From the IMG/VR virus record IMGVR_UViG_3300020454_001183, positions 2,683-66,682 of that record: a stretch of DNA of 64,000 bases; one strand, written 5' to 3'. Source of the stretch: a virus. Positions 5,034 to 26,066 of this stretch are shown piece after piece. The notes beneath the pieces were generated by a model. It ran no database searches. It was given only the letters and a program-made list of their open reading frames with translations, and was not told the DNA's origin. How positions within the stretch are numbered: position 1 is the first letter of the stretch; the number at the start of each line of letters is the position of its first letter. The position numbers and the translations under genes are program-made.

Positions 5034-5834
5034 TTACCAAAAAGTTTTCTCTCTATCTGCATCAGGTTCGTAAGTAGTATGATGTACTACTTCCGTATTA
5101 TATTCAGATGCTTCTTTAGGATAAGGTTTAGTCTCATGCTTTAACCTTTTTACCAAATCTCTTTTTTCTTTTTTAGATTGAGCAAGTATCTGTATGTATC
5201 TATGTTTTGGTGGCTCTTCTCTCCTCCAAAACTCTTTATAACCTTGCTTACCAATTTCTTTTCTAAGGTGTTCTAAGTTACCACTACCCCATAAATTAAA
5301 TACACTTCTACTATGAATCCAATCATGCGGGTCTTTAGTTAGTGATATACCCCAATTAGGCATTAGAGCAATATCAGTTGATAACCCTTGATATATCCAA
5401 TTGGTTGCTTTGTAAATACCACCAACATGTCCTTGTCCATTATCAGCATATGAAAGTAAAACTTTAATATTCTTATCATTTTCTTTTAACCATTGAAATG
5501 TTTTACCTAAAGCACAACTCTCAATATTAGAACCATATCCATCATCAACATATAAACGAGTCAACTCTAAAATATTATCTTTACTTAATCCCTCACATAC
5601 TGATGTAGATGCTTTTGCTCCTACTGGAAATCCATATACTGCTACTCCAATTAATTTGGAATCACCGAATTGTAATTTATCTTCAGTTTTATGATAAATA
5701 CCTAACGGGTATCTACACATAGTCCAAGCATGGGTGTAATGTTTCTTAACTATAATATCCTTTGCTATAGATTTTGCTATAGGTGCTACATACACTTTAG
5801 ATGCATCACAATAAAATTTACCCTCTTCTTTCAA
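5034..5834 (-). CDS. Mom-family (GNAT-fold) DNA adenine-modification protein, paralog 1
   Basis: KHY, GVAVYG, ELTRL, NIES, SYAD..QGHVGGIYKATNWIYQG, K.RY motifs of the phage Mu Mom family. Confidence 0.8.
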   Translation of the reverse strand: MKEEGKFYCDASKVYVAPIAKSIAKDIIVKKHYTHAWTMCRYPLGIYHKTEDKLQFGDSKLIGVAVYGFPVGAKASTSVCEGLSKDNILELTRLYVDDGYGSNIESCALGKTFQWLKENDKNIKVLLSYADNGQGHVGGIYKATNWIYQGLSTDIALMPNWGISLTKDPHDWIHSRSVFNLWGSGNLEHLRKEIGKQGYKEFWRREEPPKHRYIQILAQSKKEKRDLVKRLKHETKPYPKEASEYNTEVVHHTTYEPDADREKTFW

Positions 5835-6564
5835 TCGGTTCTAATTTTTTAATTTCTAATTCATCCGTATCATTACTTTTTGGATAAGTTTCAGTTGGAT
5901 GTTTTAATGTTTTTAATATTTTTTTTCGTTCACCACCTTTTGCTAAGATGTAAACATATCTATGTTTTCTTGGTTCTTTACGAATCCAAAATGGTTTATC
6001 AACTTGTTCTTGTATTTTCTTTGGGTCATTTGTTCCATAATAAGGAAAGATAGTTCTACCATGCTGCCACTCACCATCTTCACTAAATTTAAAACTCCAA
6101 CTATCATTATATCTAAGTGAGTTACCTTGATAAATCCAATTTGTAGCTTGGTAAATTGTACCAGCGTGTCCTTCTTTTGGGTCTGAGTATGATATTAATC
6201 CTTTAATTTGTGGTGTGTTTTCTCTTAACCATTTAAAACTTTGTCCTATAAACCAACTTTCTATATTTGAACCATAATCATCAAAGATAAAAACTCTAAC
6301 TAACTCTAATACTTCTGTTCTTTCTAATAATGGTGATATTGATTGCCCACTTAATCTTCCGATAGGGTCTCCATAACATATTACACCGATGAGTTTTTCT
6401 GATGAATTAAAGAACTGATGAGAATCATCTTCTATATATAATCCTAATGAATGTGATACTTTAGTCCAAAGATGTGAATAGTGATTCTTAACTATTATAT
6501 CTTTAGCTACCGATTTAGAAATTTTTCTTACAGATAACTTTGAAGTATCACAATATTTTTTCAT
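5818..6564 (-). CDS. Mom-family (GNAT-fold) DNA adenine-modification protein, paralog 2
   Basis: NHYSH, GVICYG, ELVRV, NIES, SYSDPKEGHAGTIYQATNWIYQG, KHRYVY; clearly homologous to the neighbouring ORF. Confidence 0.8.
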   Translation of the reverse strand: MKKYCDTSKLSVRKISKSVAKDIIVKNHYSHLWTKVSHSLGLYIEDDSHQFFNSSEKLIGVICYGDPIGRLSGQSISPLLERTEVLELVRVFIFDDYGSNIESWFIGQSFKWLRENTPQIKGLISYSDPKEGHAGTIYQATNWIYQGNSLRYNDSWSFKFSEDGEWQHGRTIFPYYGTNDPKKIQEQVDKPFWIRKEPRKHRYVYILAKGGERKKILKTLKHPTETYPKSNDTDELEIKKLEPIERRG

Positions 6565-6764
6565 AAACTACCAGACCAAAACTCATTAAGATGTTGCCAG
6601 GTCCGATTTTTTACAATTTTATTTATGTTAGCAGGTGATACCTTATTGTTACGAGCCATCACTTTTAAGTTGCGATGTCCCATTTTCCATAACCTTCTAA
6701 TTGTTAAAACTTGCTCATCCGTTAACTTTGCAGATGGATGAGTTTGACCTCTTCTTATTGGCAT
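6561..6764 (-). CDS. Stand-alone small HTH DNA-binding protein of the type usually fused to HNH homing endonucleases
   Basis: RGQTHPSAKLTDEQVLTIR...VSPANINKIVKNRTW pattern; no nuclease domain. Confidence 0.65.
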   Translation of the reverse strand: MPIRRGQTHPSAKLTDEQVLTIRRLWKMGHRNLKVMARNNKVSPANINKIVKNRTWQHLNEFWSGSL

Positions 6765-7028
6765 CTATAAATTTTCATTAATACTATTTGTATAAGCTAG
6801 TTCAGATTGTACTCCTACAAATCTTTCAACTACTACATTATCTTTTACAATTAATACAGTAGGTACTGAACGAACATGGTATTGTTGAGCTTCTTCAAAC
6901 TGCTCATCTATATCAATATACGAAAAATTTACGGTATTTCCAAATTTTTGGGAAACATTTTCAAATATTGGTTTAAGTGCTTTGCAAGGACCACACCAAC
7001 TAGCTTCAAATTTTTTTACTTCTATCAT
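6765..7028 (-). CDS. trxA: Thioredoxin
   Basis: WCGPC active site and SVPT cis-Pro motif; follows the RNR genes. Confidence 0.95.
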   Translation of the reverse strand: MIEVKKFEASWCGPCKALKPIFENVSQKFGNTVNFSYIDIDEQFEEAQQYHVRSVPTVLIVKDNVVVERFVGVQSELAYTNSINENL

Positions 7029-7639
7029 ATCAAATCTCCTTTGTTTTTTAAAATTCTTTCTTTTTTATCTTCTGATAAAAATTTATCTTTATATGTTTTA
7101 CTAATTTTAAGTTTTAAATAGTTTGATATCTTTTCCAAACCATCACCATAATATAAATCCTCATACCAAAAAATTGGTATATTATGAGTTTCTGATAACT
7201 CTTTTAGAGCTGATGAGTGATGTAAAAAATTCTTATAACATTCATTAACAACTCTTTTATCTATATTATCATATGGTTCTTTTGTACGATACTTAGAAAA
7301 ATCATCACCATACTTAATCTTTCTAAATGCCAAAGATTCTGATTGTTCTAATTTGTTTTTTCTATCAAACAAAATAACTTTATCAGATAACTTTATTATA
7401 TCATTACCAAATTCACATAAATCAGAATATCCACTTGGTAATCTGTGAATCATTAATTTATACAAATTATCTTTTTTCATTTTTAGATTTAAACTACCCT
7501 TCCAAGAAGGATTTAAACCCATATTTTCCATATCATTCCCAAAAGGTGATATGATTAAATTTTTTTCTAAAACATTTTTTAGATATAACGATAGATTAGT
7601 TGCACCGCTTCGTGCAGTACATAATATACTAACCATCAC
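7025..7639 (-). CDS. Stf0-like sulfotransferase (PAPS-dependent)
   Basis: CTARSGAT 5'-PSB-like loop, DRKNKLEQSES 3'-PB-like motif, YEDL. Confidence 0.65.
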   Translation of the reverse strand: MMVSILCTARSGATNLSLYLKNVLEKNLIISPFGNDMENMGLNPSWKGSLNLKMKKDNLYKLMIHRLPSGYSDLCEFGNDIIKLSDKVILFDRKNKLEQSESLAFRKIKYGDDFSKYRTKEPYDNIDKRVVNECYKNFLHHSSALKELSETHNIPIFWYEDLYYGDGLEKISNYLKLKISKTYKDKFLSEDKKERILKNKGDLI

Positions 7640-9414: not shown

Positions 9415-10530
9415 TTATATTAAATTTTTTTCTAAGTCTTTATTTTTTACTACAACCAATATTTGGTATTTTTTATTTTTGTTAACTTTCTTATAAGTTA
9501 CATGCTGATAAGGTTTATAAATCAAACACTCACCAACTTTTGGTTTTACGATTGAAAATGTTTTTCTATCATTCTTAAACCATTCATCATAAATTTCAAC
9601 TTCACCACCTTCATAATCATCATTTAATGTGAAATCATAAATCTGTTTAAATTGCTCATCATCACTAATAGGTAATCCTTTTATAGTTTCTATATGCCTA
9701 TCATAACCATCACCCTCATTATATTCGAAAAACCCACACCATACTTTTTTTAAATCAACAGCTTTGAAACTTAAAAATATAGTATCATTTAATAGTTTTT
9801 CAAATTCCTTATTATACTTTAGTTTGGTAAAATTAAATTTACGCTTATGTGATATTCCATCAATCTCTTTCTCAGCTTCGTAGTAATTTAAATTATTTTT
9901 ATTATCAAAAATTATTTTATTACATAGTTTTTTATTCAAAAGGGATTTTGATTCAAAATATTTTTCCTTTCTGAACTCATTAGCTACAAAGTATGTCCAA
10001 CCTATTTTATGCGTTTTTGGTATTCTATAATCATTGCCCCAATAAACTTGAACTTCTTCTTTATTTAGATTAGTTCTAAATTTAGTGTATTCGAAAATAC
10101 TTAAAACACAATTTTCATTTGCAATAAGTTTTGCATACTTTTCAAAAGATTGATACTTGTCCCATTCATCAACTGATGGTGATGTGTGAAAATATTCCCA
10201 TAATTTTTCATACTCTTCAAAAGTTTTTTTAGTACTAAAGTTTTCATCTTCAGGTGAAAAAGTATCCATATAGATACCATCAAATTTTTTACCTAATGAT
10301 GGAATGATATCAATCCAATCTCCAAAATGTAAATGAACATTTGGTTTATCCTTCGCCCATTCTTTGGCTCTTTGATAAACATCTTTTCTTTTTTCAATTA
10401 TGGTTAACGATTTAACTCCCTTACTATAAAAGTACTTAGAGCTAATTCCCCATCCATAACCAACATCTAAAACATCTCCCCTCGTTTTCGAAATAATATC
10501 AAAAACAATTGGATTAAAATTTTTTTCCAT
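9415..10530 (-). CDS. Fusion of a class I SAM methyltransferase (GAMT/Rmt2-like) and a 2OG-Fe(II) oxygenase-like domain
   Basis: N-half: DVLDVGYGWG, IIE, FDGIYMDTF. C-half: YNEGDGYDRHIE, LNDDYEGGE, distal QH. Confidence 0.7.
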   Translation of the reverse strand: MEKNFNPIVFDIISKTRGDVLDVGYGWGISSKYFYSKGVKSLTIIEKRKDVYQRAKEWAKDKPNVHLHFGDWIDIIPSLGKKFDGIYMDTFSPEDENFSTKKTFEEYEKLWEYFHTSPSVDEWDKYQSFEKYAKLIANENCVLSIFEYTKFRTNLNKEEVQVYWGNDYRIPKTHKIGWTYFVANEFRKEKYFESKSLLNKKLCNKIIFDNKNNLNYYEAEKEIDGISHKRKFNFTKLKYNKEFEKLLNDTIFLSFKAVDLKKVWCGFFEYNEGDGYDRHIETIKGLPISDDEQFKQIYDFTLNDDYEGGEVEIYDEWFKNDRKTFSIVKPKVGECLIYKPYQHVTYKKVNKNKKYQILVVVKNKDLEKNLI

Positions 10531-13942: not shown

Positions 13943-14893
13943 TTATTTGTTTATTGTTGATAAAATGTTTAGTATTGTAGCCATAAAGGGTATTTCCTTA
14001 TCGACTGCTAACGCATCTCTATGTTGACCTTCTGCTAATACTAAAATAACTCCACTAACCTTACCTGAAGCATATTCATCTACTTTATCATATAGAAGAG
14101 AATACATTTCAGTAAAATCTTGCACCTTTGAATCAGCTACAGTTTGTCTAACTTTTACATATTTGTTTCTACTATCATCTGATGATTTTAATATTTCTAA
14201 TATCTTAGTTTTAAAATCAGAATCTAACAAATCATTCTTTGAAAGTTTTAATGTTCCCTTAACTGAATTTAGTTGACAAGTATTTATAACTTTTCTAATA
14301 TCAGGATAAGATGAATCTATAATTGGAACTAAATCATTTACATCATATTTTATATCTTCTGATTTTAGAATCTTATCTAATTGTACTGCTACCTCTTTTT
14401 TGGATGGTGGTACAATTTGAAAGGTTTGACATCTACTTTGAATAGGGTCAATAATCTTTTCAACATAATTACAGGTCAAAATAAACCTACAATGTTTAGA
14501 AAAAGTTTCCATTAAGTTTCTAAGTATCGCTTGTGCGTTTGGTGTCATATAATCAAACTCATCTAAGATGATAATCTTATATTTCTTAAAACCTTGCGAT
14601 GATGCAAAGTTTTTAACTTTATTTCTAACTGTATCTACATTGTTTTCATCGGATGCGTTTATAATCATATAATCACACTCTATTGATTTAACAATAAGTT
14701 TAGCTAATGTTGTTTTACCAGTACCAGCTCTACCAAATAGTAAAAGATGGGGAACATCTTTTGATTCGATATAACCACTTACTTTCTCTTTTAGATGTTC
14801 GTTACCAACATAATCATCTAATTTTATCGGTCTATATTTTTCAACCCAAAGTGAGTTGTCAACCATTTCTTCTTTTTGTTCAAAAAAACTCAT
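13943..14893 (-). CDS. Clamp loader ATPase (T4 gp44 / RFC small-subunit-like)
   Basis: LWVEKYRP, GRAGTGKT, NASDE, ILDEFD, SRC. Confidence 0.95.
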   Translation of the reverse strand: MSFFEQKEEMVDNSLWVEKYRPIKLDDYVGNEHLKEKVSGYIESKDVPHLLLFGRAGTGKTTLAKLIVKSIECDYMIINASDENNVDTVRNKVKNFASSQGFKKYKIIILDEFDYMTPNAQAILRNLMETFSKHCRFILTCNYVEKIIDPIQSRCQTFQIVPPSKKEVAVQLDKILKSEDIKYDVNDLVPIIDSSYPDIRKVINTCQLNSVKGTLKLSKNDLLDSDFKTKILEILKSSDDSRNKYVKVRQTVADSKVQDFTEMYSLLYDKVDEYASGKVSGVILVLAEGQHRDALAVDKEIPFMATILNILSTINK

Positions 14894-14894: not shown

Positions 14895-16106
14895 TTATCT
14901 TCCTACTTCTTTTAAGTAATTATTTTTCATTTTATCCCAATCCATACCAATAGCATCTATATAGTATAAATGTTCTGGCTTTAATCTATTGGAATCATAT
15001 AACTTAGTGTATCTTTTAATAGCTTGTCTTTTCCACCACTTATTAATGTAATCAATACCCTCAGTAAATTTCTTCTTCATCTTTAAATCTTTTTCTTCGA
15101 TTTGTGAACGAAGGAACTCAGGTCCGTTTTCATACATCATAGCAAGATACACTCCTCTTTTAAATCCATGATGATAACTAGATTGTTTGATACCACACTC
15201 TTTAAAGATTTGTCCTAAAATCTTTTGTTTGATACCACTAACAGGTCCGTTTCTTTCATAACCCATACTCTTACCATTTCTTTCTCTTTCTTCGGTAATA
15301 TGTTTCTTATACCAATCTTCTCTGTTTTCTTTCAACCATTGGTGCCACGGGTCATAAAACTCATCATCTGGTTTGATTGATATCTTTCCAGCTGATTCAC
15401 CTAAAGTTTTAAAATGTGGGATACCATTATACTGAGAATGAATACCATATAAAGAAGTTGTACCAACTGCTATAAGAGTTTGTCCATATTTCTTTTTCCA
15501 ATATTCTCTAACCTCAGGTACAGTAGTCATCATAGCAGTAAGTTTACCTCCTAAGAAATTATATCCCAAAGGTTGTGTACAAACAATCGTTGATGCGATT
15601 GTTGTAAAGTTTAGTTTACCTTTTTTGAATTTATCTTCCTTAGTCCAACCAATATATTTATCCCTCACACCCATTGATGTAACATCAGATGCAAGTGATA
15701 CCATACCTAAAAGTTTACCACTCTTTTTATCTTTAATAAATAACTTAACATTTCGACCAGGATTAGCTGTCCAGCTCATTGTATGAATCATTCTTCTAAG
15801 ATGAGTCCACTTTGTAGATTCATTCTTATCTTCAACGATTTCAACATATGGTTCTAATTCCTCAATCTCTTTAATTGTAAGTTCTTTATTATTAATATCT
15901 GTAGGTTTCCACTGCCAATCATAATAAGATGCTATAGTAGATTTATCTCTAAGCATAGAATCTTCTTGCAACTCTACCCACTTTTTGTACAGAGTTTGTT
16001 CCTCTACACTCATCTGCATGAGGTAATCCATATTTTCAATGAGTTTTCGTTTCTCATCTTCAAATACAAATTGAGGTTTGGCTGGTTCTGTATCCCAAAA
16101 ACTCAT
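14895..16106 (-). CDS. DUF4338 / DruA-like protein
   Basis: PGRNVKLFIKD...GKLLG, RDKYIGW, QPLGYNFLGGKL, TTSLYG..SQYN motifs recalled from DUF4338 (Druantia DruA). Confidence 0.7.
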   Translation of the reverse strand: MSFWDTEPAKPQFVFEDEKRKLIENMDYLMQMSVEEQTLYKKWVELQEDSMLRDKSTIASYYDWQWKPTDINNKELTIKEIEELEPYVEIVEDKNESTKWTHLRRMIHTMSWTANPGRNVKLFIKDKKSGKLLGMVSLASDVTSMGVRDKYIGWTKEDKFKKGKLNFTTIASTIVCTQPLGYNFLGGKLTAMMTTVPEVREYWKKKYGQTLIAVGTTSLYGIHSQYNGIPHFKTLGESAGKISIKPDDEFYDPWHQWLKENREDWYKKHITEERERNGKSMGYERNGPVSGIKQKILGQIFKECGIKQSSYHHGFKRGVYLAMMYENGPEFLRSQIEEKDLKMKKKFTEGIDYINKWWKRQAIKRYTKLYDSNRLKPEHLYYIDAIGMDWDKMKNNYLKEVGR

Positions 16107-16801
16107 TACTTAATCTCCACCAAGTAATAGTTAGAAGTATAATCACCATCTTCGAAAGCTACATGCGCTAATCCTTTTGATGAAATTTTAAGTGATGATT
16201 TATTTGAACCTTTGTTTGCAGTTAATATTTCTTTTAAATATTTAGCTGAAAATGCTATAGGGTCTATATCATTATCACAACTACAATTTACAGAAATAGA
16301 AATTCTGTTTGAATTGATTGATGAATATCCTAAGATGATTTCACCTTTGTTGTTTTTACAAGTAAATGTAAATGTATCTGCATCTGCTAATGCTCCTTTT
16401 GATTTGATGTATTTATTAATAAACTCATCATCTAAAGTGATATCAGCATCAAACGGAGGAAGTTCTTTTAAATCAGGTACTGCTGGGATAACAGATGGTG
16501 CAGCTAACATATACTGTACCTTTGTTCCATTATCACTAAATTTTATAGCGCCTGTTGTTTCTTCTACTTTTATTGATGAATCTAATACACTTAATAATCC
16601 TTTTAGTTGAGAAGTGGTATATATACCAAACTCACCTGTTGGGAAGTCCTTTTCAGATACAGTAACATCACCTAATAAAGTTTTGTCATCTGAAATCATT
16701 TTAACCGATACTGAATCATCGGTTGAGTTTAACATTACAGATTCAACCTCACCACCGAGATTGTATCTATTAATGAAGCCATTTAATTTTGCTTTTTCCA
16801 T
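16106..16801 (-). CDS. Sliding clamp (T4 gp45-like)
   Basis: 231 aa, FGIY...L...LS motif, C-terminal YYLV; next to PolB and the clamp loader. Confidence 0.8.
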   Translation of the reverse strand: MEKAKLNGFINRYNLGGEVESVMLNSTDDSVSVKMISDDKTLLGDVTVSEKDFPTGEFGIYTTSQLKGLLSVLDSSIKVEETTGAIKFSDNGTKVQYMLAAPSVIPAVPDLKELPPFDADITLDDEFINKYIKSKGALADADTFTFTCKNNKGEIILGYSSINSNRISISVNCSCDNDIDPIAFSAKYLKEILTANKGSNKSSLKISSKGLAHVAFEDGDYTSNYYLVEIK

Positions 16802-16834
16802 AATTATCCTTTTACTAATTTTAATTTATTTATA

Positions 16835-16866: not shown

Positions 16867-19386
16867 TTAAAATGAAAAAAACTTTTCTGCTGTTTTGGTT
16901 GAGGATAAAACTTCACCCCAATCCATTGCGTTATAAAAATCTTCTAACTTTTTTAATAATTCTCTTTCGAAGATTTTATCATAATCAATGTATGTATTGA
17001 CTAATTCCATTATTTCCTTTGGGTCATCGTAACCTTTAAATGCTACTCCATCTAATCCCATTGGATTTTGTTTCAAATAAACCCACTTTACTTTATCACC
17101 ATTTTTCATAGGTTCATATTTCATCTCACATTTAAAATGAGATAATAATTGATTGAAAGCAATAGCTGCTTTTACATGCGCTGGTGTTCCCAACTTAAAT
17201 TGAAACATTCTTTGTTGTTTACCTTTGGGTAAATACTTTGTTAGATTTTTAACTGATGTATTTTTTGCTATTTGTACAACATTCATTTCGGATAAACCTT
17301 TTTTGAATCCCCAAATTTTATCAGTTAACTCATTCTCTGTATTACCTTTTAGAATATCGATAAGTACTTCACTCATAAACTTCCTAAAAGCCGCTGGATA
17401 AGATGACCTAACAACATCTAATCCCTTTACATCTAACTTGTCAACAGCTACCCCATTATCAGAAATAATCCACTGTGCGTACCGTTTCTTTGCTATCCAT
17501 ATTCCACTCTTTGAAACATATTCTTTTTTAATTTCAAATCGATGTTTATCTTTATCAACATTAAAAACCTTTTCGGATAAAATATCATAGAATCCATTTA
17601 GATAATCTTGCATTTCTTCAGCTATCTCATTTACGAAACCAGCTATTGTATCTTGCTCATTATCTTTCCAATCGGGTATTCTCTTATCTAATAAAGGTAC
17701 TGCTGAAAAGAATACAGAATCAGTATCGATGTATATGTTAGAATCCAAAGTACTATCACCAAGCTCCTTATTGTACTTGATGTTAGCCATATCAGCAGTT
17801 GATTTAATAACTGTCTGTCCTGTCGTGGTAACAGCGGTAGCATTATCAACATCATAGAACCGAAAGGCAGGAAGACCAAGCACCCCATATAAAGAGTTAA
17901 GTAGAATCTTCTGTACCAACTGACGTTTTTTATACCATTCGTATTTAGCTTTGTTTCCAGCTTTTCCATATTTTTTCATTTCGTTTTTGAACTCTACCCT
18001 CTGATTAAACCAAATATCTAAGATATCAGGTATACAACCAACTGTATCTGTTCTATATAATACACCATTTGATGCTACTGAAAACTTTGATTTATCAAAA
18101 AACTTTTTAAGGTTCTCTTGAGTAATCGTATCTCCATTGATAATCCATTTATCTCTTTTATTTTTTACAAATTCTTCTGCACTCCAATCTTGGATTTTAC
18201 CAACTTTAGTTTCAGGTGAAATATTAATACTCATAATAATAGAGGGATATAGAGAAGTTAAATCCAAATCATAAATCCATTCGTACTTACCAACAATAGG
18301 TGCCTTCACATATGCTCCAATGAATTTTTCTTCATTATTATCCCTAAGAGCTTGCATTCTTTCTTGTCTATCAGCAGGTTTGTTCGGTGCTACGATACCT
18401 TTCCTCTTTAGGTAACATAGTAATGCTCCCTCTAAGTATTTTGAAGAATAAACAAAATCCTCATATGGAACGTGGCCTGCATGACAGATACCTCTAGCAG
18501 TGTCGATGAATTGCAACTTCTTATCCATATCTACAACTAATTCAACATCTACTAAGTTGTACTCAATGAACTTCTCTATATCATCTCTGAATAGTTGGTC
18601 TAAGTTACCTTGATATTCTATTTTACCTCTACCAACTTCTTTTTTTGCAATAGAATCCAATCGGTAATTATCCAACTCTGTATAAGTAAAGTTTTTATAA
18701 AGTGCTAAATAATCTAAATATGATACACCAGCCATAAAGAATCTTTTTCTATAAGGTGACCAGAAACATTCACCAATAGGTGATAACCTATTTGCTTGTC
18801 TCTTACCTAATAGATTTTTAATTCTATTGTAAAGATATGGTGTATCAAAGTAATCAATATTCCAACCCGTAACAATTGATGGGTTGATATATTCATATAG
18901 TTCTAAATATTTTTCTAAGAGTTCAGCTTCACTTCTAAATGGTAAAACAATTGCTTTATCAGTTTTCTTATTTGATAAACCACCCTCCTTATCTAAAACT
19001 AAAACATAATACTGATTGGTTGCCGAATCATGCAAAGCAATAGAGGTTATCTCATTCTTAGCTTCTTGCATATCGGGCAAACCAGTTTCCATTTCAACCT
19101 CAATATCATATGTAAGGGTAACATGACCGATTGATGGTTCATCTGATTCAGTATAAGTATCTACCAAAACTCTAGTGGTTTCGGGTACATCGGATTCAAA
19201 TAAATTATGATTATCTTTTTGGAATTTATAGATTTTAGTTAATCTATCTCCATACAAAGATATATGTTCCCCATTCTGTGCTTTCTCATAAGCATATCTT
19301 GTGTAAGGAAAAGTTCTATATCCTAATTTATCATCCCATAAATGGATGAGATTTTTTTCTCTCTGATAATATACATTTTGGTACAT
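16867..19386 (-). CDS. polB: Family B DNA polymerase (T4 gp43-like) with proofreading exonuclease
   Basis: ExoI YDIE, ExoII GWNIDYFD, ExoIII YNLVD, DLTSLYPS, KILLNSLYG, YIDTDS, KKRY; C-terminal EKFFSF. Confidence 0.96.
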   Translation of the reverse strand: MYQNVYYQREKNLIHLWDDKLGYRTFPYTRYAYEKAQNGEHISLYGDRLTKIYKFQKDNHNLFESDVPETTRVLVDTYTESDEPSIGHVTLTYDIEVEMETGLPDMQEAKNEITSIALHDSATNQYYVLVLDKEGGLSNKKTDKAIVLPFRSEAELLEKYLELYEYINPSIVTGWNIDYFDTPYLYNRIKNLLGKRQANRLSPIGECFWSPYRKRFFMAGVSYLDYLALYKNFTYTELDNYRLDSIAKKEVGRGKIEYQGNLDQLFRDDIEKFIEYNLVDVELVVDMDKKLQFIDTARGICHAGHVPYEDFVYSSKYLEGALLCYLKRKGIVAPNKPADRQERMQALRDNNEEKFIGAYVKAPIVGKYEWIYDLDLTSLYPSIIMSINISPETKVGKIQDWSAEEFVKNKRDKWIINGDTITQENLKKFFDKSKFSVASNGVLYRTDTVGCIPDILDIWFNQRVEFKNEMKKYGKAGNKAKYEWYKKRQLVQKILLNSLYGVLGLPAFRFYDVDNATAVTTTGQTVIKSTADMANIKYNKELGDSTLDSNIYIDTDSVFFSAVPLLDKRIPDWKDNEQDTIAGFVNEIAEEMQDYLNGFYDILSEKVFNVDKDKHRFEIKKEYVSKSGIWIAKKRYAQWIISDNGVAVDKLDVKGLDVVRSSYPAAFRKFMSEVLIDILKGNTENELTDKIWGFKKGLSEMNVVQIAKNTSVKNLTKYLPKGKQQRMFQFKLGTPAHVKAAIAFNQLLSHFKCEMKYEPMKNGDKVKWVYLKQNPMGLDGVAFKGYDDPKEIMELVNTYIDYDKIFERELLKKLEDFYNAMDWGEVLSSTKTAEKFFSF

Positions 19387-20513
19387 TAAGTATTTAATTG
19401 TTTATGAAGTTCTTTAATCATTTTACCTTCGTTTGTAGATAATTCTTTTGCTCTTTCTAAAGAACGAAGTTCGTGGGTAAATCTAAATATATCATCATCC
19501 AACATTTTATCTAATAAATCGAAAAATTCTTTTTTCTTTGTAAAAAATAAACCATTTGGGTCTATCTCTCTATAACATAATGAGTCTTGGAATATCATCG
19601 GAGTACCATTCATCATACAATCAGTACCACTAACACTCCAACCATAGTTTGTTTGTCTCATCTGAACACCAACTTTACAATTTTGTAACCTTTCATAATA
19701 TTCGTGCTTTGGTACTTTTGTATTATCAATCCAATTTTCAGGTGATTTACCAGCTAATTGTGGCACCCAAACTACAAAATCCTCTCTTTGTTTTCTGTAC
19801 TCTCTCATTAACTTTATAAAAGCTGGATATCCTTTATAACCAGCTGCTCTATGATTGAATACAATAATATTTCTTTTTTCATCTGATGGTTTCTCAATTA
19901 TCTTAGATTTATCTACACCTAAATTCCAAACCTTTAGAATATTATCTAAATCAGAAACAACCTCTTTACTAAAGGTTTCACTAGCTTCTTCCAATACTCT
20001 GTTCTTTTGGTCTTGTGTATTAAGATAACAAGTATCCATTTGTGATACTCCTAATAATTCTATAGGTAACCACATCCATTTTGCTTTACCTGCTCTTCTA
20101 TCAACCCCATTAGCAGATTTCATTTCCCACCAATGACAGTATCCAATTATTTTTGTATCAATTTTATTTCTATATCTACCAACTTGAACCCAATCTGGTA
20201 AGTGTGAATAGATAACATCGTAATCAACATCCTTCATTATTTTAATTAAATCAGGTGGGAATGCTCTTTGATTCATCATATCACCTGAGAATGGTAGGAT
20301 GTGTTGTTTTACATTTTCTAAGTTTAGTTTCCTAACGGGTTTTGGTAAGATTACATTCCAATAGTATTCTCCCTCTCTATCGAGTGCGATAATGTGATTA
20401 TACAGAACATCTACGAAAGAATCCTTTTCAATGCTACCAGCATTGGTGATATTTGGTATCACCAACACCTTTCTAGCATCTTTGTAATCTATTTTAGTTT
20501 CCCAGAAACTCAT
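19386..20513 (-). CDS. GT-B glycosyltransferase, candidate DNA glycosyltransferase
   Basis: IVFNHR...YKG, YGWSVSGTD..MNGTP GT-B motifs; TAATG-coupled to PolB. The DNA substrate is inferred from context. Confidence 0.65.
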   Translation of the reverse strand: MSFWETKIDYKDARKVLVIPNITNAGSIEKDSFVDVLYNHIIALDREGEYYWNVILPKPVRKLNLENVKQHILPFSGDMMNQRAFPPDLIKIMKDVDYDVIYSHLPDWVQVGRYRNKIDTKIIGYCHWWEMKSANGVDRRAGKAKWMWLPIELLGVSQMDTCYLNTQDQKNRVLEEASETFSKEVVSDLDNILKVWNLGVDKSKIIEKPSDEKRNIIVFNHRAAGYKGYPAFIKLMREYRKQREDFVVWVPQLAGKSPENWIDNTKVPKHEYYERLQNCKVGVQMRQTNYGWSVSGTDCMMNGTPMIFQDSLCYREIDPNGLFFTKKKEFFDLLDKMLDDDIFRFTHELRSLERAKELSTNEGKMIKELHKQLNT

Positions 20514-22213
20514 TATCCAATAACCATTTCTTTAACATTTTTAATTTGAGATTCACTTAAAGTAATCGAACCTTTTAAAATGTACTTAGATAATCCATCG
20601 AAATCTTCATAGCCATATTTTTCACATAAGTACTCAACATCATTAATATCCATTCCACTTGATTTCATATCATTTGCAGATTTGGATAAAATCTGTCCAT
20701 TTTTAACATCGGTAGGTCCACCAAATGCGTATGGTAAAATATGGTCTACCGCATATTCGGTTTTATTTAAATCAACTCCTGTCTGTTTACATTTACCATC
20801 TTGTTCAGCCCATAAATAGTCAAATTGCTTTTGACTGAATGTTCTAGCATCATCTTTAGAATTTGTTTTCAAACCAAAAGTATTTGAACCTTTAGTAAGA
20901 AAATGATAATAGATGTATTGAAGGTCATCAACTCTCGCTCCCCCAGTAAATACTGATGGGAACATATGAGTTTCATGATACTTTACATTAGTTGGTTGTT
21001 CTGATTTTGGAAGAGGGACAACCTTACCATTATCTAATTTATAAAGTTGATGTGGATTGTGCTTTACCTTTGATTTCAAAAGTTCAGTATAAGCTTGTTT
21101 TAATTCTTTATAGAATTTTTTTGCATTTGGATTGTATTTACTAAATCCTCCTGCATTTTTAGCTGATTCTGCTATCAACATTATCAACTTTTTGATAGCT
21201 CCTTTACCCCATGTTCCGTTTCTTTTTTCGGATAATCTACCACATTTAATAACATCATTTAGTATAGTAAGTAGTTTATCCAAATCACTTGATAAAGAAT
21301 CATCTTCATTCTTTAATCGTTTGATAAGATTTTCATCACGATACATTTTATTCAATTCAGGTTGAGATTCCAAACCTATAAATCCATCGGTGAAAATACC
21401 ACCGTTATATAGATAGTAAAGAGCGAATGATATCATTTCATCAGTTGCTCTTCTAGTGATAGGAACTGAAACATTAGCTAATGTTTTACCTTTTGAATTT
21501 GTTAAAATTTCTTTAAATATACTGAGTGCATGTTTAGAATCAACTGCTCCTTTATTTCTACAAATATCAGCTACTATATTATCAATAGCGTTTCTTTTAT
21601 CAGCATGAGACATATCATGCAAATCATTCAACTTCAGAAATAAATCCTCAGCTTCTTTATCAGTAATACCTCTGTATTCATATATTTCAAATTTTAGATT
21701 CCAAATATATGTTTCTAAAAATGGATAGTTTACAATAATATCCTTAAATGTCATATTAGATAAATCAAAATGTTTACCATTTACATCGGTTAAAATAGTA
21801 CCCTCTGGTAATCTAACATATCCATTTAAGAATTTATATACTGTACGAGTTCTGTGTCCTCCATCAACAATTTCCCAAATTCCATCTTTTAATCTTAAAT
21901 GGACTGGTTGGAATGGATTATCCATAAGGATATCCCTCATCAAATTCTTTTGCCATTGGTTACCCTCTCCAAAGAGTAACATAGTACCATCAACATCTGG
22001 TCTTTGATACTTAGGTTTATCATTTACAGTTTTGTTACCAAATGATTGGTACATTTTAGTAAAAGTCCAATCATTATGATTTGGAGTAACTTTACTTTTC
22101 ATTGGTACAAACACATACTTTACTTCAGTATTTGTACTTTCATCCACTACTATAGTGGGATTTTTAATTGTTCGGCGAGTTTTACGATTTGCCGAAATCT
22201 CAATTGTGTTCAT
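20513..22213 (-). CDS. DUF262 (ParB-like NTPase) + HNH nuclease, GmrSD/SspE-like
   Basis: PKYQR, IVDGGHR (variant of DGQQR), LFLKLN (FxxxN), C-terminal VDHILP..GG....NGQIL....N. Confidence 0.8.
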   Translation of the reverse strand: MNTIEISANRKTRRTIKNPTIVVDESTNTEVKYVFVPMKSKVTPNHNDWTFTKMYQSFGNKTVNDKPKYQRPDVDGTMLLFGEGNQWQKNLMRDILMDNPFQPVHLRLKDGIWEIVDGGHRTRTVYKFLNGYVRLPEGTILTDVNGKHFDLSNMTFKDIIVNYPFLETYIWNLKFEIYEYRGITDKEAEDLFLKLNDLHDMSHADKRNAIDNIVADICRNKGAVDSKHALSIFKEILTNSKGKTLANVSVPITRRATDEMISFALYYLYNGGIFTDGFIGLESQPELNKMYRDENLIKRLKNEDDSLSSDLDKLLTILNDVIKCGRLSEKRNGTWGKGAIKKLIMLIAESAKNAGGFSKYNPNAKKFYKELKQAYTELLKSKVKHNPHQLYKLDNGKVVPLPKSEQPTNVKYHETHMFPSVFTGGARVDDLQYIYYHFLTKGSNTFGLKTNSKDDARTFSQKQFDYLWAEQDGKCKQTGVDLNKTEYAVDHILPYAFGGPTDVKNGQILSKSANDMKSSGMDINDVEYLCEKYGYEDFDGLSKYILKGSITLSESQIKNVKEMVIG

Positions 22214-22291
22214 ATAAATTTATTTATGCCCGTTAATTATTTTATAGTATCAGAACTTGGGCTAGTTCTTCAACCTTTTTTAAATCTACTA

Positions 22292-22323
22292 CTAATATAC
22301 GAAAAATATTTGAAACTACCAAA
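22292..22323 (-). promoter_or_regulatory. Bacteroidota-type -33/-7 promoter
   Basis: TTTG-N20-TATATTAG; positioned to drive DUF262-HNH, GT and PolB. Confidence 0.8.
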
Positions 22324-24766: not shown

Positions 24767-24778
24767 ATAGGGGTTTTA

Positions 24779-25609
24779 TTAGTTGTTAAACAAATCATCA
24801 AATGCCGCTGCAACATCATCTGTTTTCTTAGTTGCTTTTGGCTTATCTTCATCTACATCAAAAGGTAAATCATTAGGTTTTTCTTCTGATTTAACTTCTT
24901 TCTTAGATAATGTTTCTTCTGCTACAGAAGGTTCACCATCTTCATTTTTTTCTGAAGTAGGATTTAACCATCCTTCTAACACTCCTTTTAATTCATCATA
25001 AGATAATTCAGAATAAAGGTCTGTGATTTCAGTTTGGCCTTCTAAGAACTTAGTAACATCATCTGCAGTTTCAGATAATGGTGTCTGATTTGGTTTAACT
25101 CTAATAGTTGTAACAGGATATGAAGTTCCTGCTTCTTCAGCGGATTGATACTCTATTGTAATATCTCTACCACTCTTCGGGTCTGTAATATCACCATAAT
25201 CTGGGTCAGCTATGTAACCTAAGATTTCTTGATATACAGTCTTACCAAATCCCCAAAATTTAACTCCTTCACCTTCTTGTCCTCTCACTAAGATAGGAAC
25301 GAAAGTTCTAAGTTTCGGCTCCATCTGCTTTGCAGCTTTCCAATCTTCCTTATCACCCATTCTTTTTAATCTATCAGCGAACTCAACTATAGGGTCAGGT
25401 CTACCAAATGATTGTGGTGAGAGATAAGTTTTATTGTTAATGTTGTAGTGAAAATACAATTCGATGAAAGGATTATCTTTGTCGAATTTGTAAGGAACGA
25501 TTCTGACTTGATGTTTACCAGGTGTTGGTTTCCATAAATTGTCAGACTTCTTTTGTGTGTTTTGTAGTTTGTTCAGTCTACCTCTGATTGCGTCAATATT
25601 AATTGCCAT
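24779..25609 (-). CDS. Single-stranded DNA-binding protein (T4 gp32-like)
   Basis: WKP...VRIVP, WGFGKTVY, DITDP..GRD, acidic tail ending AFDDLFNN. Confidence 0.85.
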   Translation of the reverse strand: MAINIDAIRGRLNKLQNTQKKSDNLWKPTPGKHQVRIVPYKFDKDNPFIELYFHYNINNKTYLSPQSFGRPDPIVEFADRLKRMGDKEDWKAAKQMEPKLRTFVPILVRGQEGEGVKFWGFGKTVYQEILGYIADPDYGDITDPKSGRDITIEYQSAEEAGTSYPVTTIRVKPNQTPLSETADDVTKFLEGQTEITDLYSELSYDELKGVLEGWLNPTSEKNEDGEPSVAEETLSKKEVKSEEKPNDLPFDVDEDKPKATKKTDDVAAAFDDLFNN

Positions 25610-25685
25610 AATTTACTCCTTTAAGTTATTAAAATTTAAGTTTTATAGTTTAGTTTAACATGCGTTTCTTACATGCGGTGTTATA

Positions 25686-25695
25686 TATAAATATA
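25686..25695 (-). promoter_or_regulatory. Class II promoter element TATATTTATA
   Basis: Intergenic, upstream of the SSB gene. Confidence 0.55.
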
Positions 25696-25718
25696 GTGTT
25701 TTTACAAAAACATAACAT

Positions 25719-26066
25719 TTATTTTGCCCATTTATTTCTGGACACAATTTGTGATATCACACCATAAACAGACAGGTCTTGATAGGTATCTTCTATTGCT
25801 TCACCTACCTCATCTGGCTGTCCTTTTACCACTAATTGTAATAATCTTTGAATCTTGTCATTCTTTCTGAACCAAAGTCCAGTAAGTGCTATATTTCTAT
25901 CTTCATCAGTTTCCAAACTTGAACCTACTGATATATTACCAGGTCCATAGTTTCTCTGTTTCTTACAGAAAGTTTCATACATTTCATCAAGGATTTCTTT
26001 AAATTCGGTTGTAGTTTGTGGGAACTTTTCCTCACAATACTGGATTGCAGTTTGTTCTTTTGCCAT
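25719..26066 (-). CDS. DUF1599 / nucleotide-modification-associated domain protein (MazG-like all-alpha)
   Basis: F.KK..NYG..N, R.NDK..RL, E.IEDT..DL..Y. Confidence 0.75.
   Translation of the reverse strand: MAKEQTAIQYCEEKFPQTTTEFKEILDEMYETFCKKQRNYGPGNISVGSSLETDEDRNIALTGLWFRKNDKIQRLLQLVVKGQPDEVGEAIEDTYQDLSVYGVISQIVSRNKWAK

What the first reader, a model, noticed from the sequence alone, without database searches (positions are those of the whole stretch)
5034..26066. Candidate replisome-coupled DNA modification and counter-defence system dispersed through the replication operon
Seen in sequence: the T4-type replisome is interleaved with two tandem Mom-like genes, a DUF4338/DruA-like gene between clamp and clamp loader, a GT-B gene TAATG-coupled to PolB, a DUF262-HNH nuclease coupled to that GT, and a DUF1599 gene. 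Established: Mu Mom modifies adenine, T-even GT-B enzymes glucosylate DNA, GmrSD cuts modified DNA, and DUF1599 co-occurs with nucleotide-modification genes. Inference: the phage may install one or more uncharacterised DNA marks during replication and pair them with a nuclease that distinguishes self from non-self. I know no described system with this combination.
Basis: partly seen in the sequence, partly recalled or inferred. Interest (0 to 1): 0.85.

Follow-up and report, generated by a model that had tools for sequence, protein, structure and literature searches.

The report
Mom–DruA–glycosyltransferase DNA-modification module in replisome
A large marine T4-like phage carries two Mom-type adenine modifiers, a DruA-type acyltransferase, a glycosyltransferase and a swappable nuclease inside its DNA-replication operons; related phages keep or lose these genes together, so they probably form one undescribed DNA-marking pathway.

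Summary
At the stated coordinates, all on the minus strand, lie two tandem Mom genes, a DUF4338/DruA gene between clamp and clamp loader, a GT4 GT-B glycosyltransferase start/stop-coupled to PolB, and a DUF262–HNH (GmrSD-like) gene coupled to that GT. The DUF1599 match is below Pfam's cut-off.

In 80 related IMG/VR loci the Mom pair, the DruA-like gene and the GT upstream of PolB are all present or all absent: 0 discordant of 43, 49 and 53 informative loci. The PolB tree needs at least 4 switches. Where they are absent, the same two slots hold other DNA-modification genes: three DNA methylases, a TET-associated GT, or a thymidylate-synthase-like/Asn-synthase/PLP set. More distant phages place Mom, GT and DruA side by side, or Mom and DruA on either side of PolB.

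The nuclease sits in a hypervariable slot, and DUF1599 is not tied to the module.

Clamp tethering is suggested but not shown. DruA and GT share an N-terminal FW[D/E] peptide with the clamp loader, Mom1 ends like PolB, and the DruA–clamp fold gave weak support only.

Best reading: a co-inherited DNA hypermodification module built on Mom chemistry. The mark itself is unknown. Interpretation partly supported.

The parts
5818..6564 (-). Mom2: Mom-family GNAT. It keeps the Mu Mom residues H58, Y59, R111, S124, D149, Y159 and W181, and has K at the R151 position.
   Evidence: Pfam Mom E 4.1e-46. PDB 8bv8 (Mu Mom) E 3.2e-12, aligned over chain residues 29-232. Ortholog alignment A2. Residue roles from PMC13219725, section 13.
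5034..5834 (-). Mom1: the second Mom paralog, with a TTG start overlapping the end of Mom2. The R151 position is G. D149 is N in 2 of 8 Mom1 orthologs aligned. It has a conserved C-terminal aromatic tail (..EKTFW) resembling the PolB tail (..EKFFSF).
   Evidence: Pfam Mom E 1.1e-46. 45% identical to Mom2. Alignment A2. Only Mom1 and PolB end in such a tail among minus-strand ORFs of 80 aa or more.
14895..16106 (-). DruA-like DUF4338 protein, a GNAT-fold acyltransferase. It is TAATG-coupled to the clamp gene and carries a disordered N-terminal MSFWDTEP peptide.
   Evidence: Pfam DruA E 6.4e-21. PADLOC DruA1 E 1.2e-19. AF2 pLDDT 93.1, pTM 0.90. The Foldseek PDB rows listed (ranks 1-50) are GNAT-type proteins, but weak, E 0.012-0.2. 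76-99% identical across relatives. N-terminal motif present in 51 of 51 orthologs.
19386..20513 (-). GT4-type GT-B glycosyltransferase, stop/start-coupled to PolB downstream and to the nuclease upstream. It has an N-terminal MSFWET extension.
   Evidence: Sub-threshold Pfam GT4/GT1 hits. AF2 model plus Foldseek: MshA E 7.6e-12, TM 0.72; 368 PDB matches at E <= 0.001. Two allelic classes about 32% identical occupy the same site. Present in 43 of 43 informative loci that carry the module and in 0 of 16 that lack it.
20513..22213 (-). DUF262-HNH (GmrSD-like) nuclease in the hypervariable 'X' slot upstream of the GT.
   Evidence: Pfam GmrSD_N E 1.4e-8, HNH_4 weak. PADLOC NsnA E 2.2e-8. The alignment consensus has the DGxHR and HNH motifs. 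Homologs 21-37% identical sit at the same site in L005, L062, L064, L078 and L079, and other relatives hold unrelated proteins there.
16106..16801 (-). Sliding clamp (gp45-like): context gene and candidate docking platform.
   Evidence: Weak Pfam Rad1 hit. Orthologs annotated as clamp in Mel-JY01, S-CAM9 and HTVC008M contexts. Complex prediction with DruA gave weak support.
16867..19386 (-). Family-B DNA polymerase (gp43-like): context gene flanked by the two modification slots. Its C-terminal tail is ..AEKFFSF.
   Evidence: Pfam DNA_pol_B E 5.6e-40. Termini printed.
13943..14893 (-). Clamp-loader AAA+ subunit (gp44-like): context gene. Its N-terminus MSFFEQ shares the F-[WF]-[DE] start with DruA and the GT.
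   Evidence: Pfam AAA and DNA_pol3_delta2. Only these three ORFs of 145 match the N-terminal pattern.
22290..22305 (-). Promoter-like motif TTTTCGTATATTAGTA upstream of the GmrSD-GT-PolB unit. An identical copy at 16833-16848 precedes clamp-DruA-clamp loader.
   Evidence: Four exact copies on the minus strand at 16833, 22290, 26085 and 30367. Nine matches at up to 3 mismatches against 2.78 expected; 1 of 100 shuffles reached 9.

Best explanation
The window belongs to an abundant aquatic clade of large T4-like phages (three relatives' records of 207-253 kb are rated 100% complete). It encodes one co-inherited DNA-hypermodification module inserted at two hot spots that flank PolB and the clamp.

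The fixed components are:
- two Mom-family GNATs;
- a DUF4338/DruA-type GNAT;
- a GT4 GT-B glycosyltransferase.

A fifth, exchangeable gene sits just upstream of the GT. In this window it is a DUF262-HNH (GmrSD-like) nuclease.

Most likely mechanism (inferred):
1. The Mom paralogs, possibly as a heterodimer in which Mom2 is the better-preserved catalyst, transfer an aminoacyl group from charged tRNA to N6 of adenine in phage double-stranded DNA, as Mu Mom does with Gly-tRNA(Gly).
2. The DruA-like GNAT and the GT add or elaborate further groups on the same or another base.
3. The resulting mark protects phage DNA from restriction.
4. The nuclease cuts DNA that lacks the mark or carries a foreign one.

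The genes are transcribed and translationally coupled with PolB, clamp and clamp loader, so the mark would be written while DNA is being replicated.

Shown here: gene identities, folds, co-inheritance, replacement by other DNA-modification cassettes, and conserved neighbourhood in distant phages.

Inferred: DNA as the substrate of DruA and the GT, the chemistry, the role of the nuclease, and any clamp tethering.
For: 1. Family and fold assignments.

2. Co-inheritance in the 80 loci kept of 327 PolB relatives, counted:
- DruA against Mom: 36 both present, 7 both absent, 0 discordant, of 43 loci covering both sites.
- DruA against GT: 41, 8 and 0, of 49.
- Mom against GT: 38, 15 and 0, of 53.
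- The PolB ML tree of 81 rows needs at least 4 label changes. The shuffled mean is 14, and 0 of 500 shuffles were as low. In three of those switches both sites are seen to change together: L013/L016, L036/L038 and the 17-row clade.

3. Whole-record checks:
- 0 of 5 records have Mom and 0 of 5 have DruA among four contigs that lack the module plus the complete 190-kb Mel-JY01 genome.
- 5 of 5 contigs that carry the module, three rated 100% complete, have exactly two adjacent Mom genes.

4. What fills the slots when the module is absent:
- L013: three tandem N6_N4 DNA methylases, E 2e-43 to 4e-45.
- L036: TET-associated glycosyltransferase, E 4.6e-32, in the clamp slot.
- L059/L082: a thymidylate-synthase-like protein, an Asn-synthase/GATase, a PLP enzyme and a DNA-MTase-like protein upstream of PolB. 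A paralogous MTase-like 544-aa protein sits in the clamp slot.

5. Neighbourhood in more distant viruses, from 120 IMG/VR loci holding the DruA motif:
- L108: Mom2-Mom1-X-GT-DruA-PolB.
- L139: Mom-Mom1-GT-DruA.
- L150 and L197: Mom1-DruA adjacent.
- L134, L188 and L191 (DruA 44-48%): Mom within about 5-6 kb.
- L117 and L159 (PolB only 29-31%, DruA 25%): Mom (E 7e-52 and 2e-51) directly upstream of PolB, and DruA-like one DNA-methylase gene downstream of it.

6. DNA context of the DruA domain. Homologs are fused to ParB_N (2), UDG (1) and DUF3102 (2), among 10 long homologs scanned. The Aravind group calls DUF4338 a GNAT (PMC10853773, passage read).

7. Mu Mom chemistry and key residues come from PMC13219725. 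The residues are mapped onto Mom1 and Mom2.

8. Expression units: promoter-like motifs and TAATG couplings.
Against: - No chemistry is measured, and there is no isolate of this clade.
- DruA-like genes stand without any Mom gene in 4 of 4 cultured phages checked: HTVC008M, Mosig, S-CAM9 and S-SCSM2R. Only 2 of 15 distant loci (DruA 37% or less) among L088-L167 that include PolB have Mom. DruA therefore does not need Mom.
- hhalign finds no homology between the DruA and Mom profiles, probability 1.2%.
- Foldseek support for the GNAT fold of DruA is weak: no PDB match at E <= 0.001, and Mu Mom 8bv8 is not among the rows listed.
- The GT resembles small-molecule GT4 enzymes best (MshA, BshA). No T-even DNA glucosyltransferase appears in the rows listed (ranks 1-50).
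- Mom1 lacks the R151 equivalent that is essential in Mu.
- Many of the 80 loci are near-copies, and the slots are physically close, so part of the co-occurrence is linkage.
- Genomes with the module also carry a canonical-looking ThyA, E about 1e-93 to 1e-98. That gives no sign of a hydroxymethyl-pyrimidine route for the GT.
Confidence: 0.6

Rival explanations
1. Only the Mom genes act on DNA. The DruA-like GNAT acylates a protein (a replisome or host protein) or a small molecule. The GT glycosylates a small molecule, a lipid or a virion protein. They travel with Mom because all sit in the same hyperplastic region.
For: - DruA-like genes occur without Mom in 4 of 4 cultured phages checked.
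- The GT's best structural matches are small-molecule GT4 enzymes.
- Other GT genes (2469-3851 and neighbours) are conserved in every relative, including Mel-JY01. Glycosylation of non-DNA targets therefore exists in this clade.
- Foldseek places DruA nearest to protein and small-molecule acetyltransferases as much as to TmcA.
Against: - Association is perfect in 49 and 53 informative loci, across at least 4 switches.
- The slot between clamp and clamp loader is otherwise filled by DNA enzymes: TAGT or an MTase-like protein.
- DruA homologs are fused to ParB_N and UDG.
- Mom, GT and DruA are directly adjacent in L108, L139 and L197.
Confidence: 0.2
2. There is no functional unit. These are independent accessory genes that accumulated in two insertion hot spots of the replication region. 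Their joint presence or absence reflects shared ancestry and block recombination.
For: - The regions s67-to-PolB and clamp-to-clamp-loader are clearly hypervariable: many unrelated occupants, a TonB-receptor gene in L059 and a GroEL-like start in L082.
- Many loci are near-identical, which inflates the counts.
- The MTase-2OG gene between the RNR subunits comes and goes independently.
Against: - The two slots are separated by conserved PolB and clamp, yet they switch together in three independent places on the PolB tree.
- The pairing of Mom with DruA reappears in lineages whose PolB is only 29-31% identical, and with a different gene order.
- DruA is as conserved as PolB, 76-99%. That is unlike drifting cargo.
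Confidence: 0.15
3. The phage DruA-like protein is a decoy or inhibitor aimed at a host Druantia type I system, not an enzyme of a modification pathway.
For: Family membership with DruA of Druantia. Phages often carry homologs of defence proteins. The Phold preprint lists DruA-like proteins in six Synechococcus phages as defence look-alikes (10.1101/2025.08.05.668817, passages read).
Against: - Nearly invariant residues cluster in short sequence motifs (around Q178-K188 and T216-G221), as expected of a working enzyme.
- High conservation, replisome-operon position and co-inheritance with Mom and the GT.
- No evidence that the unknown hosts carry Druantia I.
Confidence: 0.03

Closest known systems
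Bacteriophage Mu Mom (PF25680; PDB 8bv8), which writes N6-carbamoylmethyl-adenine from Gly-tRNA(Gly)
   Same: Both window genes are full-length Mom-family members, profile positions 2-202 of 202. They keep H58, Y59, R111, S124, D149, Y159 and W181.
   Different: - Mu has one gene acting as a homodimer and expressed late.
- Here there are two 45%-identical paralogs, fixed as a pair in 5 of 5 whole records carrying the module.
- The dimer residue W48 is replaced by S in both. R151 is K in Mom2 and G in Mom1.
- The pair is co-inherited with a second GNAT family and a GT, and sits in early/replication operons.
Mom-REase fusions of jumbo phages (Iyer et al. 2021, PMC7824862, passage read)
   Same: Momylation paired with a nuclease predicted to attack host or competitor DNA.
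   Different: Here the nuclease is a separate DUF262-HNH gene in a slot that holds unrelated proteins in other relatives. The module also contains DruA and a GT.
DruA of Druantia type I (PF14236/DUF4338)
   Same: Pfam and PADLOC matches above threshold. The fold is GNAT-like (PMC10853773).
   Different: No DruB-E-type genes (for example a large helicase) among the 42 window ORFs between 692 and 41,767 that were scanned. The gene is phage-encoded and lies between clamp and clamp loader. It carries an N-terminal FW[DE] peptide that the cyanophage and pelagiphage homologs lack.
DruA-like genes of T4-like cyanophages and pelagiphages (S-PRM1 and others in the Phold preprint; Mosig EXVC030M 'DUF4338'; S-SCSM2R ORF152 annotated 'methylcarbamoylase mom')
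   Same: Homologous, 24-31% identity, in 31 phage records. They also lie in the clamp-loader region, between gp44 and gp62 in S-CAM9 and S-SCSM2R.
   Different: Those phages have no PF25680 Mom, 0 of 4. No coupled GT was looked for there. Their function is equally unknown.
T-even DNA glucosyltransferases; the phage HY126 glycosyltransferase (PDB 9iqz). HY126 DNA carries arabinosylated 5-hydroxycytosine (PMC13326640, passages read)
   Same: GT-B fold. 9iqz is a structural match at E 9e-10, TM 0.61.
   Different: The best matches are GT4 small-molecule enzymes. No pyrimidine hydroxylase or hydroxymethylase partner was seen in the window, and genomes with the module carry a canonical-scoring ThyA. 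The acceptor is unknown.
GmrSD / BrxU / SspE-type DUF262 nucleases (type IV restriction)
   Same: N-terminal DUF262 with a DGxxR motif and a C-terminal His-Me/HNH nuclease.
   Different: Phage-encoded, translationally coupled to a GT, and 21-37% identical to its positional homologs. The C-terminal domain hits HNH_4 only weakly, not DUF1524.

Membership tests
Mom family (PF25680) | Full-length match to the family profile above the curated cut-off | tested here: met
   159.5 and 157.6 bits against a cut-off of 27.1, profile positions 2-202 of 202. phrog_1384 'Mom-like' E 2.7e-46 and 2.4e-52.
Mom family (PF25680) | Residues essential in Mu Mom: R111, S124, D149 and R151, plus H58, Y59, Y159 and W181 | tested here: inconclusive
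   R111, S124, H58, Y59, Y159 and W181 are kept in both. D149 is kept in both window copies but is N in 2 of 8 Mom1 orthologs. R151 is K in Mom2 and G in Mom1. W48 is S in both (residue roles from PMC13219725 section 13).
Mom family (PF25680) | tRNA-dependent aminoacyl transfer to N6-dA in double-stranded DNA | not testable with these tools
   Needs biochemistry.
DruA / DUF4338 (PF14236) | Match to the family profile above the cut-off | tested here: met
   75.2 bits against 27. PADLOC DruA1 E 1.2e-19. 1069 representatives at E <= 0.001.
DruA / DUF4338 (PF14236) | GNAT fold | tested here: inconclusive
   AF2 pLDDT 93.1. The listed PDB matches are GNAT-type proteins (GCN5, TmcA, malonyl-CoA decarboxylase), but at E 0.012-0.2, none at E <= 0.001.
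Druantia type I system | druA encoded with druB-E, including the large DruE helicase | tested here: not met
   No such genes among the 42 window ORFs between 692 and 41,767 that were scanned against Pfam. The neighbours of the DruA-like gene are clamp and clamp loader. ORFs beyond 41,767 were not scanned.
GT-B / GT4 glycosyltransferases | Two-Rossmann GT-B fold resembling GT4 enzymes | tested here: met
   Foldseek: MshA E 7.6e-12, TM 0.72; 368 matches at E <= 0.001. Pfam GT4/GT1 hits are below the cut-offs. Atlas neighbours are GT4 clusters.
Phage DNA base glycosyltransferases | DNA base as the acceptor | not testable with these tools
   Indirect only: co-inheritance with Mom and DruA, and a structural match to the phage HY126 GT.
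GmrSD-type DUF262 nucleases | N-terminal DUF262 domain with a DGQQR-type motif | tested here: met
   GmrSD_N 35.5 bits against 33.2. DGGHR in the window protein and IDGQHR in the consensus.
GmrSD-type DUF262 nucleases | C-terminal His-Me (DUF1524/HNH) nuclease domain | tested here: inconclusive
   HNH_4 18 bits against a cut-off of 22. phrog_6050 HNH E 9.2e-6. An HNH-like motif is in the alignment consensus.
DUF1599 (PF07659) | Match above the curated cut-off, and linkage to the module | tested here: not met
   17.6 bits against 25. An ortholog (51%) is present in Mel-JY01, which lacks Mom and DruA.
Clamp-binding (PIP-box type) clients of gp45 | Terminal peptide with an aromatic pair that docks on the clamp (Qxxhxxaa; PMC3012046, passages read) | tested here: inconclusive
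   - Only the aromatic pair plus an acidic residue is present, not a full PIP box.
- Complex prediction, clamp with DruA: weak support, score 0.44, best of 3 controls 0.00.

The most novel reading that the evidence does not exclude
The modification enzymes ride on the phage sliding clamp.
- Mom1 carries a C-terminal tail that copies the cognate PolB clamp-binding tail: ..EKTFW against ..EKFFSF here, and ..NLSEFL against ..NLEAFF in a lineage with only about 30% PolB identity.
- DruA and the GT carry an N-terminal F-W-[D/E] peptide shared with the clamp loader.

Together they would write, co-replicatively, a composite adenine mark not yet described. One possibility is an N6-aminoacyl group placed by the Mom pair, then capped by the DruA GNAT and/or glycosylated by the GT.

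By extension, DruA of Druantia type I would be a DNA-acylating enzyme.
Probability: 0.2. Interest if true: 0.9.

Novelty: new variant of a known kind. Interest (0 to 1): 0.74.

Why it matters
- Mom was thought to be a single-enzyme system. A fixed Mom pair working with a DUF4338 GNAT and a glycosyltransferase would be a new multi-step purine hypermodification pathway. It would occur in a phage clade frequent in marine and freshwater metagenomes: 327 PolB relatives in IMG/VR, and thousands of DruA and Mom cluster members.
- It gives the first functional handle on DUF4338/DruA, the unexplained core protein of Druantia type I. It points to cultured phages (HTVC008M, Mosig, S-CAM9 and other cyanophages) in which a DruA-only mark could be looked for.
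- Two recombination slots flank PolB and the clamp and swap whole DNA-modification regimes. That makes a natural experiment for how phages exchange epigenetic identities.
- If the terminal peptides do bind the clamp, this would be a case of DNA-modifying enzymes tethered to a viral sliding clamp.

Tried and rejected
**DruA as a distant Mom paralog.** hhalign of the DruA profile (A1, 46 sequences) against the Mom profile (A2, 16 sequences) gave probability 1.2%. BLASTP found nothing. Not supported by sequence.

**Solved relatives of DruA.** phmmer against PDB sequences gave 0 hits at E <= 1. Foldseek against the PDB gave no match at E <= 0.001.

**The X slot as one family.** Ten X proteins gave 0 Pfam hits. 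BLAST clustering gave two large clusters plus singletons. hhalign of cluster a (GmrSD-like) against cluster b gave probability 0.1%. The slot holds unrelated proteins, and four loci (L056, L057, L060, L061) have none.

**A hydroxymethyl-pyrimidine route for the GT.** Genomes with the module carry one ThyA-like gene scoring as a canonical enzyme, E 2e-93 to 8e-98. No support. A divergent TS-like gene appears only in the clade that lacks the module.

**tRNA genes in the window.** None.

**Wider search for DruA contexts.**
- The single protein P0139 found no confirmed locus.

**Literature.**
- 'DUF4338' anywhere: 4 papers, none linking it to Mom.
- 'DruA' plus 'acetyltransferase' as whole words: 2 papers held the terms and 1 was listed, the Phold preprint.
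- One search was a false lead, because word-start matching hit 'Druantia'.
- Supplements are closed. The supplementary similarity network and homolog tables of PMC13219725 might already show tandem Moms or their neighbours.

**Other points.**
- The MTase/2OG-oxygenase gene (9415-10530) was considered as a module member and rejected. It is present in L004, partial in L007, present in L059 (which lacks the module), and absent in L005.
- One homologous-protein search, one Pfam-type search, the look-up of sequencing runs and read laying were left unused.

Full report
**What is there.** The window is bases 2683-66682 of a 66.7-kb IMG/VR virus contig that CheckV rates 32% complete. It has about 31% G+C, and every gene in the first 30 kb is on the minus strand. 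Pfam, PHROGs and PADLOC scans give a T4-type replication region:
- RNR subunits and thioredoxin;
- gp41 helicase;
- clamp loader gp62 (13227-13676) and gp44 (13943-14893);
- clamp (16106-16801);
- family-B polymerase (16867-19386);
- FEN/RNase H, UvsX and gp32.

- Mom1 at 5034-5834 and Mom2 at 5818-6564 (E about 1e-46 each, 45% identical);
- a DruA/DUF4338 protein at 14895-16106 (E 6.4e-21);
- a glycosyltransferase at 19386-20513;
- a DUF262-HNH protein at 20513-22213.

The TAATG overlaps clamp/DruA, nuclease/GT and GT/PolB are real. The DUF1599 match at 25719-26066 is below Pfam's cut-off. The nearest isolate is Microcystis phage Mel-JY01, with PolB 53.7% identical.

**Co-inheritance.** A scan of IMG/VR with PolB found 327 relatives, and 80 loci with up to 10 kb of flank were kept. 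I mapped 30 window proteins onto them with tblastn. The commonest order is gp41-RNR-Trx-s67-Mom2-Mom1-X-GT-PolB-clamp-DruA-gp44-zn-gp62-PD(D/E)XK-GT. In most relatives the genes are therefore one block, and the dispersal seen in this window comes from a rearrangement.

Counting only loci that cover the relevant sites:

| Pair | Both present | Both absent | Discordant | Loci |
|---|---|---|---|---|
| DruA and Mom | 36 | 7 | 0 | 43 |
| DruA and GT | 41 | 8 | 0 | 49 |
| Mom and GT | 38 | 15 | 0 | 53 |

Many loci are near-copies, so I built a PolB tree of 81 rows (IQ-TREE quick mode, SH-aLRT support only). The present/absent label needs at least 4 changes. The shuffled mean is 14, and 0 of 500 shuffles were as low. 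The changes are:
- L013/L016, nested beside L012;
- L036/L038, nested beside L022;
- a 17-row clade that mostly lacks the module;
- L046, which carries DruA inside that clade.

In the first three, both slots are observed to switch while PolB and clamp between them stay in place.

Whole-record searches agree. Four contigs that lack the module, plus the complete Mel-JY01 genome, have 0 of 5 Mom and 0 of 5 DruA. Five contigs that carry it, three rated 100% complete, each have exactly two adjacent Mom genes.

**What replaces the module.** This is the most telling result.
- In L013 the Mom/X/GT slot holds three tandem N6/N4 DNA methylases, E 2e-43 to 4e-45.
- In L036 the clamp slot holds a 224-aa protein and a TET-associated glycosyltransferase, E 4.6e-32.
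- In the large clade that lacks the module (L059, L082), the slot upstream of PolB holds four genes: a divergent thymidylate-synthase-like gene, an asparagine-synthase/amidotransferase (E 1.9e-42), a PLP enzyme and a DNA-methylase-like protein.
- In that same clade the clamp slot holds a 544-aa paralog of the methylase-like protein: 30% identity over 246 residues, PADLOC MTase_II E 6.9e-9.
- L082 also has a GmrSD_N+HNH gene directly upstream of PolB.

Both slots are thus DNA-modification cassettes that are exchanged as regimes.

**Deeper neighbourhood.** I scanned IMG/VR with a degenerate pattern for the conserved DruA motif. All 120 contain a DruA-profile hit, and 11 contain a Mom-profile hit.
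- In lineages with 63-67% DruA identity the genes become adjacent: L108 is Mom2-Mom1-X-GT-DruA-PolB, L139 is Mom-Mom1-GT-DruA, and L150 and L197 have Mom1-DruA.
- In a 44-48% lineage (L134, L188, L191) Mom lies about 5-6 kb away.
- In two cyanophage-like contigs (L117, L159; PolB 29-31%, DruA 25%) a bona fide Mom (Pfam E 7e-52 and 2e-51) overlaps the start of PolB. A DruA-like gene lies one DNA-methylase gene downstream of PolB.

The association is not obligatory, however. Thirty-one phage records carry DruA-like genes. The four checked (HTVC008M, Mosig, S-CAM9, S-SCSM2R) have no Mom. Only 2 of 15 distant loci (DruA 37% or less) among L088-L167 that include PolB have one. In S-CAM9 and S-SCSM2R the DruA-like gene lies between gp44 and gp62. 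A place in the clamp-loader operon is therefore recurrent.

**What the proteins are.** Mu Mom is a GNAT that transfers glycine from Gly-tRNA(Gly) to N6 of dA in double-stranded DNA, after which the group rearranges to carbamoylmethyl. It is a tight homodimer. R111, S124, D149 and R151 are essential or nearly so (PMC13219725; abstract and sections 13 and 14 read).
- Aligned to PDB 8bv8, both window proteins keep H58, Y59, R111, S124, D149, Y159 and W181.
- R151 is K in Mom2 and G in Mom1. D149 is N in 2 of 8 Mom1 orthologs. The dimer residue W48 is S in both.
- A heterodimer with Mom2 as the main catalyst is a reasonable guess. It was not tested.

The DruA-like protein gave a confident model, pLDDT 93.1 and pTM 0.90.
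- The PDB matches listed (ranks 1-50 of 372 at E <= 10) are GNAT-type proteins (GCN5/PCAF, TmcA, malonyl-CoA decarboxylase), but weak at E 0.012-0.2.
- This agrees with the Aravind group's statement that DUF4338 is a GNAT (PMC10853773, passage).
- Profile comparison does not link it to Mom.
- Of 10 long homologs scanned, 2 carry ParB_N, 1 UDG, 2 DUF3102 and 1 a LAGLIDADG insert. This points to DNA as the working surface.

The GT model (pLDDT 78.9) is a GT4-type GT-B. Its best match is MshA at E 7.6e-12. It also matches the GT of phage HY126 at E 9e-10; that phage's DNA carries arabinosyl-5-hydroxycytosine. The GT comes in two classes about 32% identical at the same site.

The X slot holds a GmrSD-like cluster (window, L005, L017, L028, L040, L062, L064, L078, L079), a second unrelated cluster, singletons, or nothing.

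**Replisome coupling.**
- An exact 16-base promoter-like motif precedes clamp-DruA-clamp loader and also nuclease-GT-PolB.
- DruA orthologs all start with an F-W-[D/E] peptide after one to three residues, 50 of 51 as M-S-F-W-[D/E] (51 of 51 with the motif). GT orthologs of the window's class start M-x(0-2)-F-W-[D/E] (18 of 18). The other GT class lacks this 15-residue extension, and gp44 starts M-x-F-F-E.
- Of 145 ORFs of 50 aa or more in the window, only gp44, DruA and the GT match this pattern. Among minus-strand ORFs of 80 aa or more, only Mom1 and PolB end in an aromatic pair.
- The N-terminal motif persists in the 48-67% lineages. In L117 and L159 the Mom tail (..NLSEFL) resembles their PolB tail (..NLEAFF).
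- In T4, the gp43 C-terminal tail and an N-terminal peptide of RNase H bind gp45 (PMC3012046, passages).
- A fold of clamp plus DruA gave weak support only. The score was 0.44, and the best of 3 controls was 0.00.
- The tool's calibration for that mark: it was reached by 58 of 80 solved complexes and 2 of 110 mismatched pairs. At 0.60 or under, it was reached by only 7 of those 80 solved complexes and by both mismatches that passed.
- The three runs agree in at least 33% of contacts, and the partner's pLDDT is at least 83. My own alignments were used, so these counts hold only roughly.

I treat tethering as an open and attractive hypothesis.

**Verdict.**
- A DNA-modification system in the replication operons is well supported by co-inheritance, cassette replacement and conserved neighbourhood.
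- The nuclease is an exchangeable add-on.
- DUF1599 is unrelated to the module.
- The chemistry is unknown.

Known precedents cover the parts: Mu Mom, Mom-REase fusions, DruA look-alikes in cyanophages and GmrSD. None covers the combination. My searches of the held library found no paper linking DUF4338 with Mom. I rate it a new variant of a known kind, phage DNA hypermodification clusters, with interest 0.74.

Noticed in passing
L087 (Synechococcus phage S-SCSM2R) 6707-7828: ORF152 is annotated 'methylcarbamoylase mom' and discussed as the first cyanophage Mom (PMC12801897). It is a DUF4338/DruA-like protein, matching residues 116-376 of the window's DruA-like protein. The whole genome has no PF25680 Mom hit.
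   Followed up: partly
window 9415-10530 (-): A gene fusing a SAM-methyltransferase-like N-half to a 2OG-Fe(II)-oxygenase-like C-half (all hits sub-threshold) is inserted between the two RNR subunit genes. It is present in L004 (90%) and L059 (53%), partial in L007, and absent in L005. It varies independently of the Mom/DruA module.
   Followed up: partly
window 16833-16848, 22290-22305, 26085-26100, 30367-30382 (-); near-copies at 4996, 6911, 13190: A conserved 16-base promoter-like motif lies upstream of the clamp, nuclease, DUF1599, PD-(D/E)XK and gp41 units. It is probably the early/middle promoter of this phage clade.
   Followed up: partly
L059 15158-17866: A TonB-dependent receptor gene with a CarboxypepD_reg N-domain (SusC-like) lies between clamp and clamp loader in a relative that lacks the module. 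It may be an auxiliary gene and a hint at a Bacteroidota-type host. The best isolate match of Mom2 is a Polaribacter phage (46%).
   Followed up: no
window 28470-29096 (-): A DNA/RNA non-specific endonuclease (Endonuclease_NS, E 6e-27) with a hydrophobic, signal-peptide-like N-terminus. It is followed by a weak PolA-like ORF at 29108-30364.
   Followed up: no
BFVD hits to the DruA model: Giant-virus proteins (Faunusvirus, Yasminevirus, Dasosvirus) match the DruA-like model at E 8e-19 to 7e-10. The domain therefore also occurs in Nucleocytoviricota metagenome bins.
   Followed up: no
P0270 (DruA homolog, 708 aa): The protein carries LAGLIDADG endonuclease domains after the DruA domain, possibly an intein or a homing-endonuclease fusion.
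   Followed up: no
window 2469-3851, 1207-2469, 692-1207 (-): A second glycosyltransferase cluster (GT1/GT4-conflict-like plus two unknown proteins) is conserved in all relatives, including Mel-JY01, whether or not Mom/DruA is present. It is likely a separate, non-DNA glycosylation function.
   Followed up: partly
window 46893-51368, 51383-55393, 57959-64000 (-): Three very large ORFs (1491 aa, 1336 aa, and at least 2013 aa running off the window) lie in the structural region downstream of the gp19-like tail tube gene. They were not analysed.
   Followed up: no
window 32080-32853 (-): A PhyH-family dioxygenase (E 4.5e-21). Mosig EXVC030M carries an annotated phytanoyl-CoA dioxygenase gene two genes upstream of its DUF4338 gene, and both pelagiphages carry several 2OG-Fe(II) oxygenase genes in that region.
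   Followed up: no
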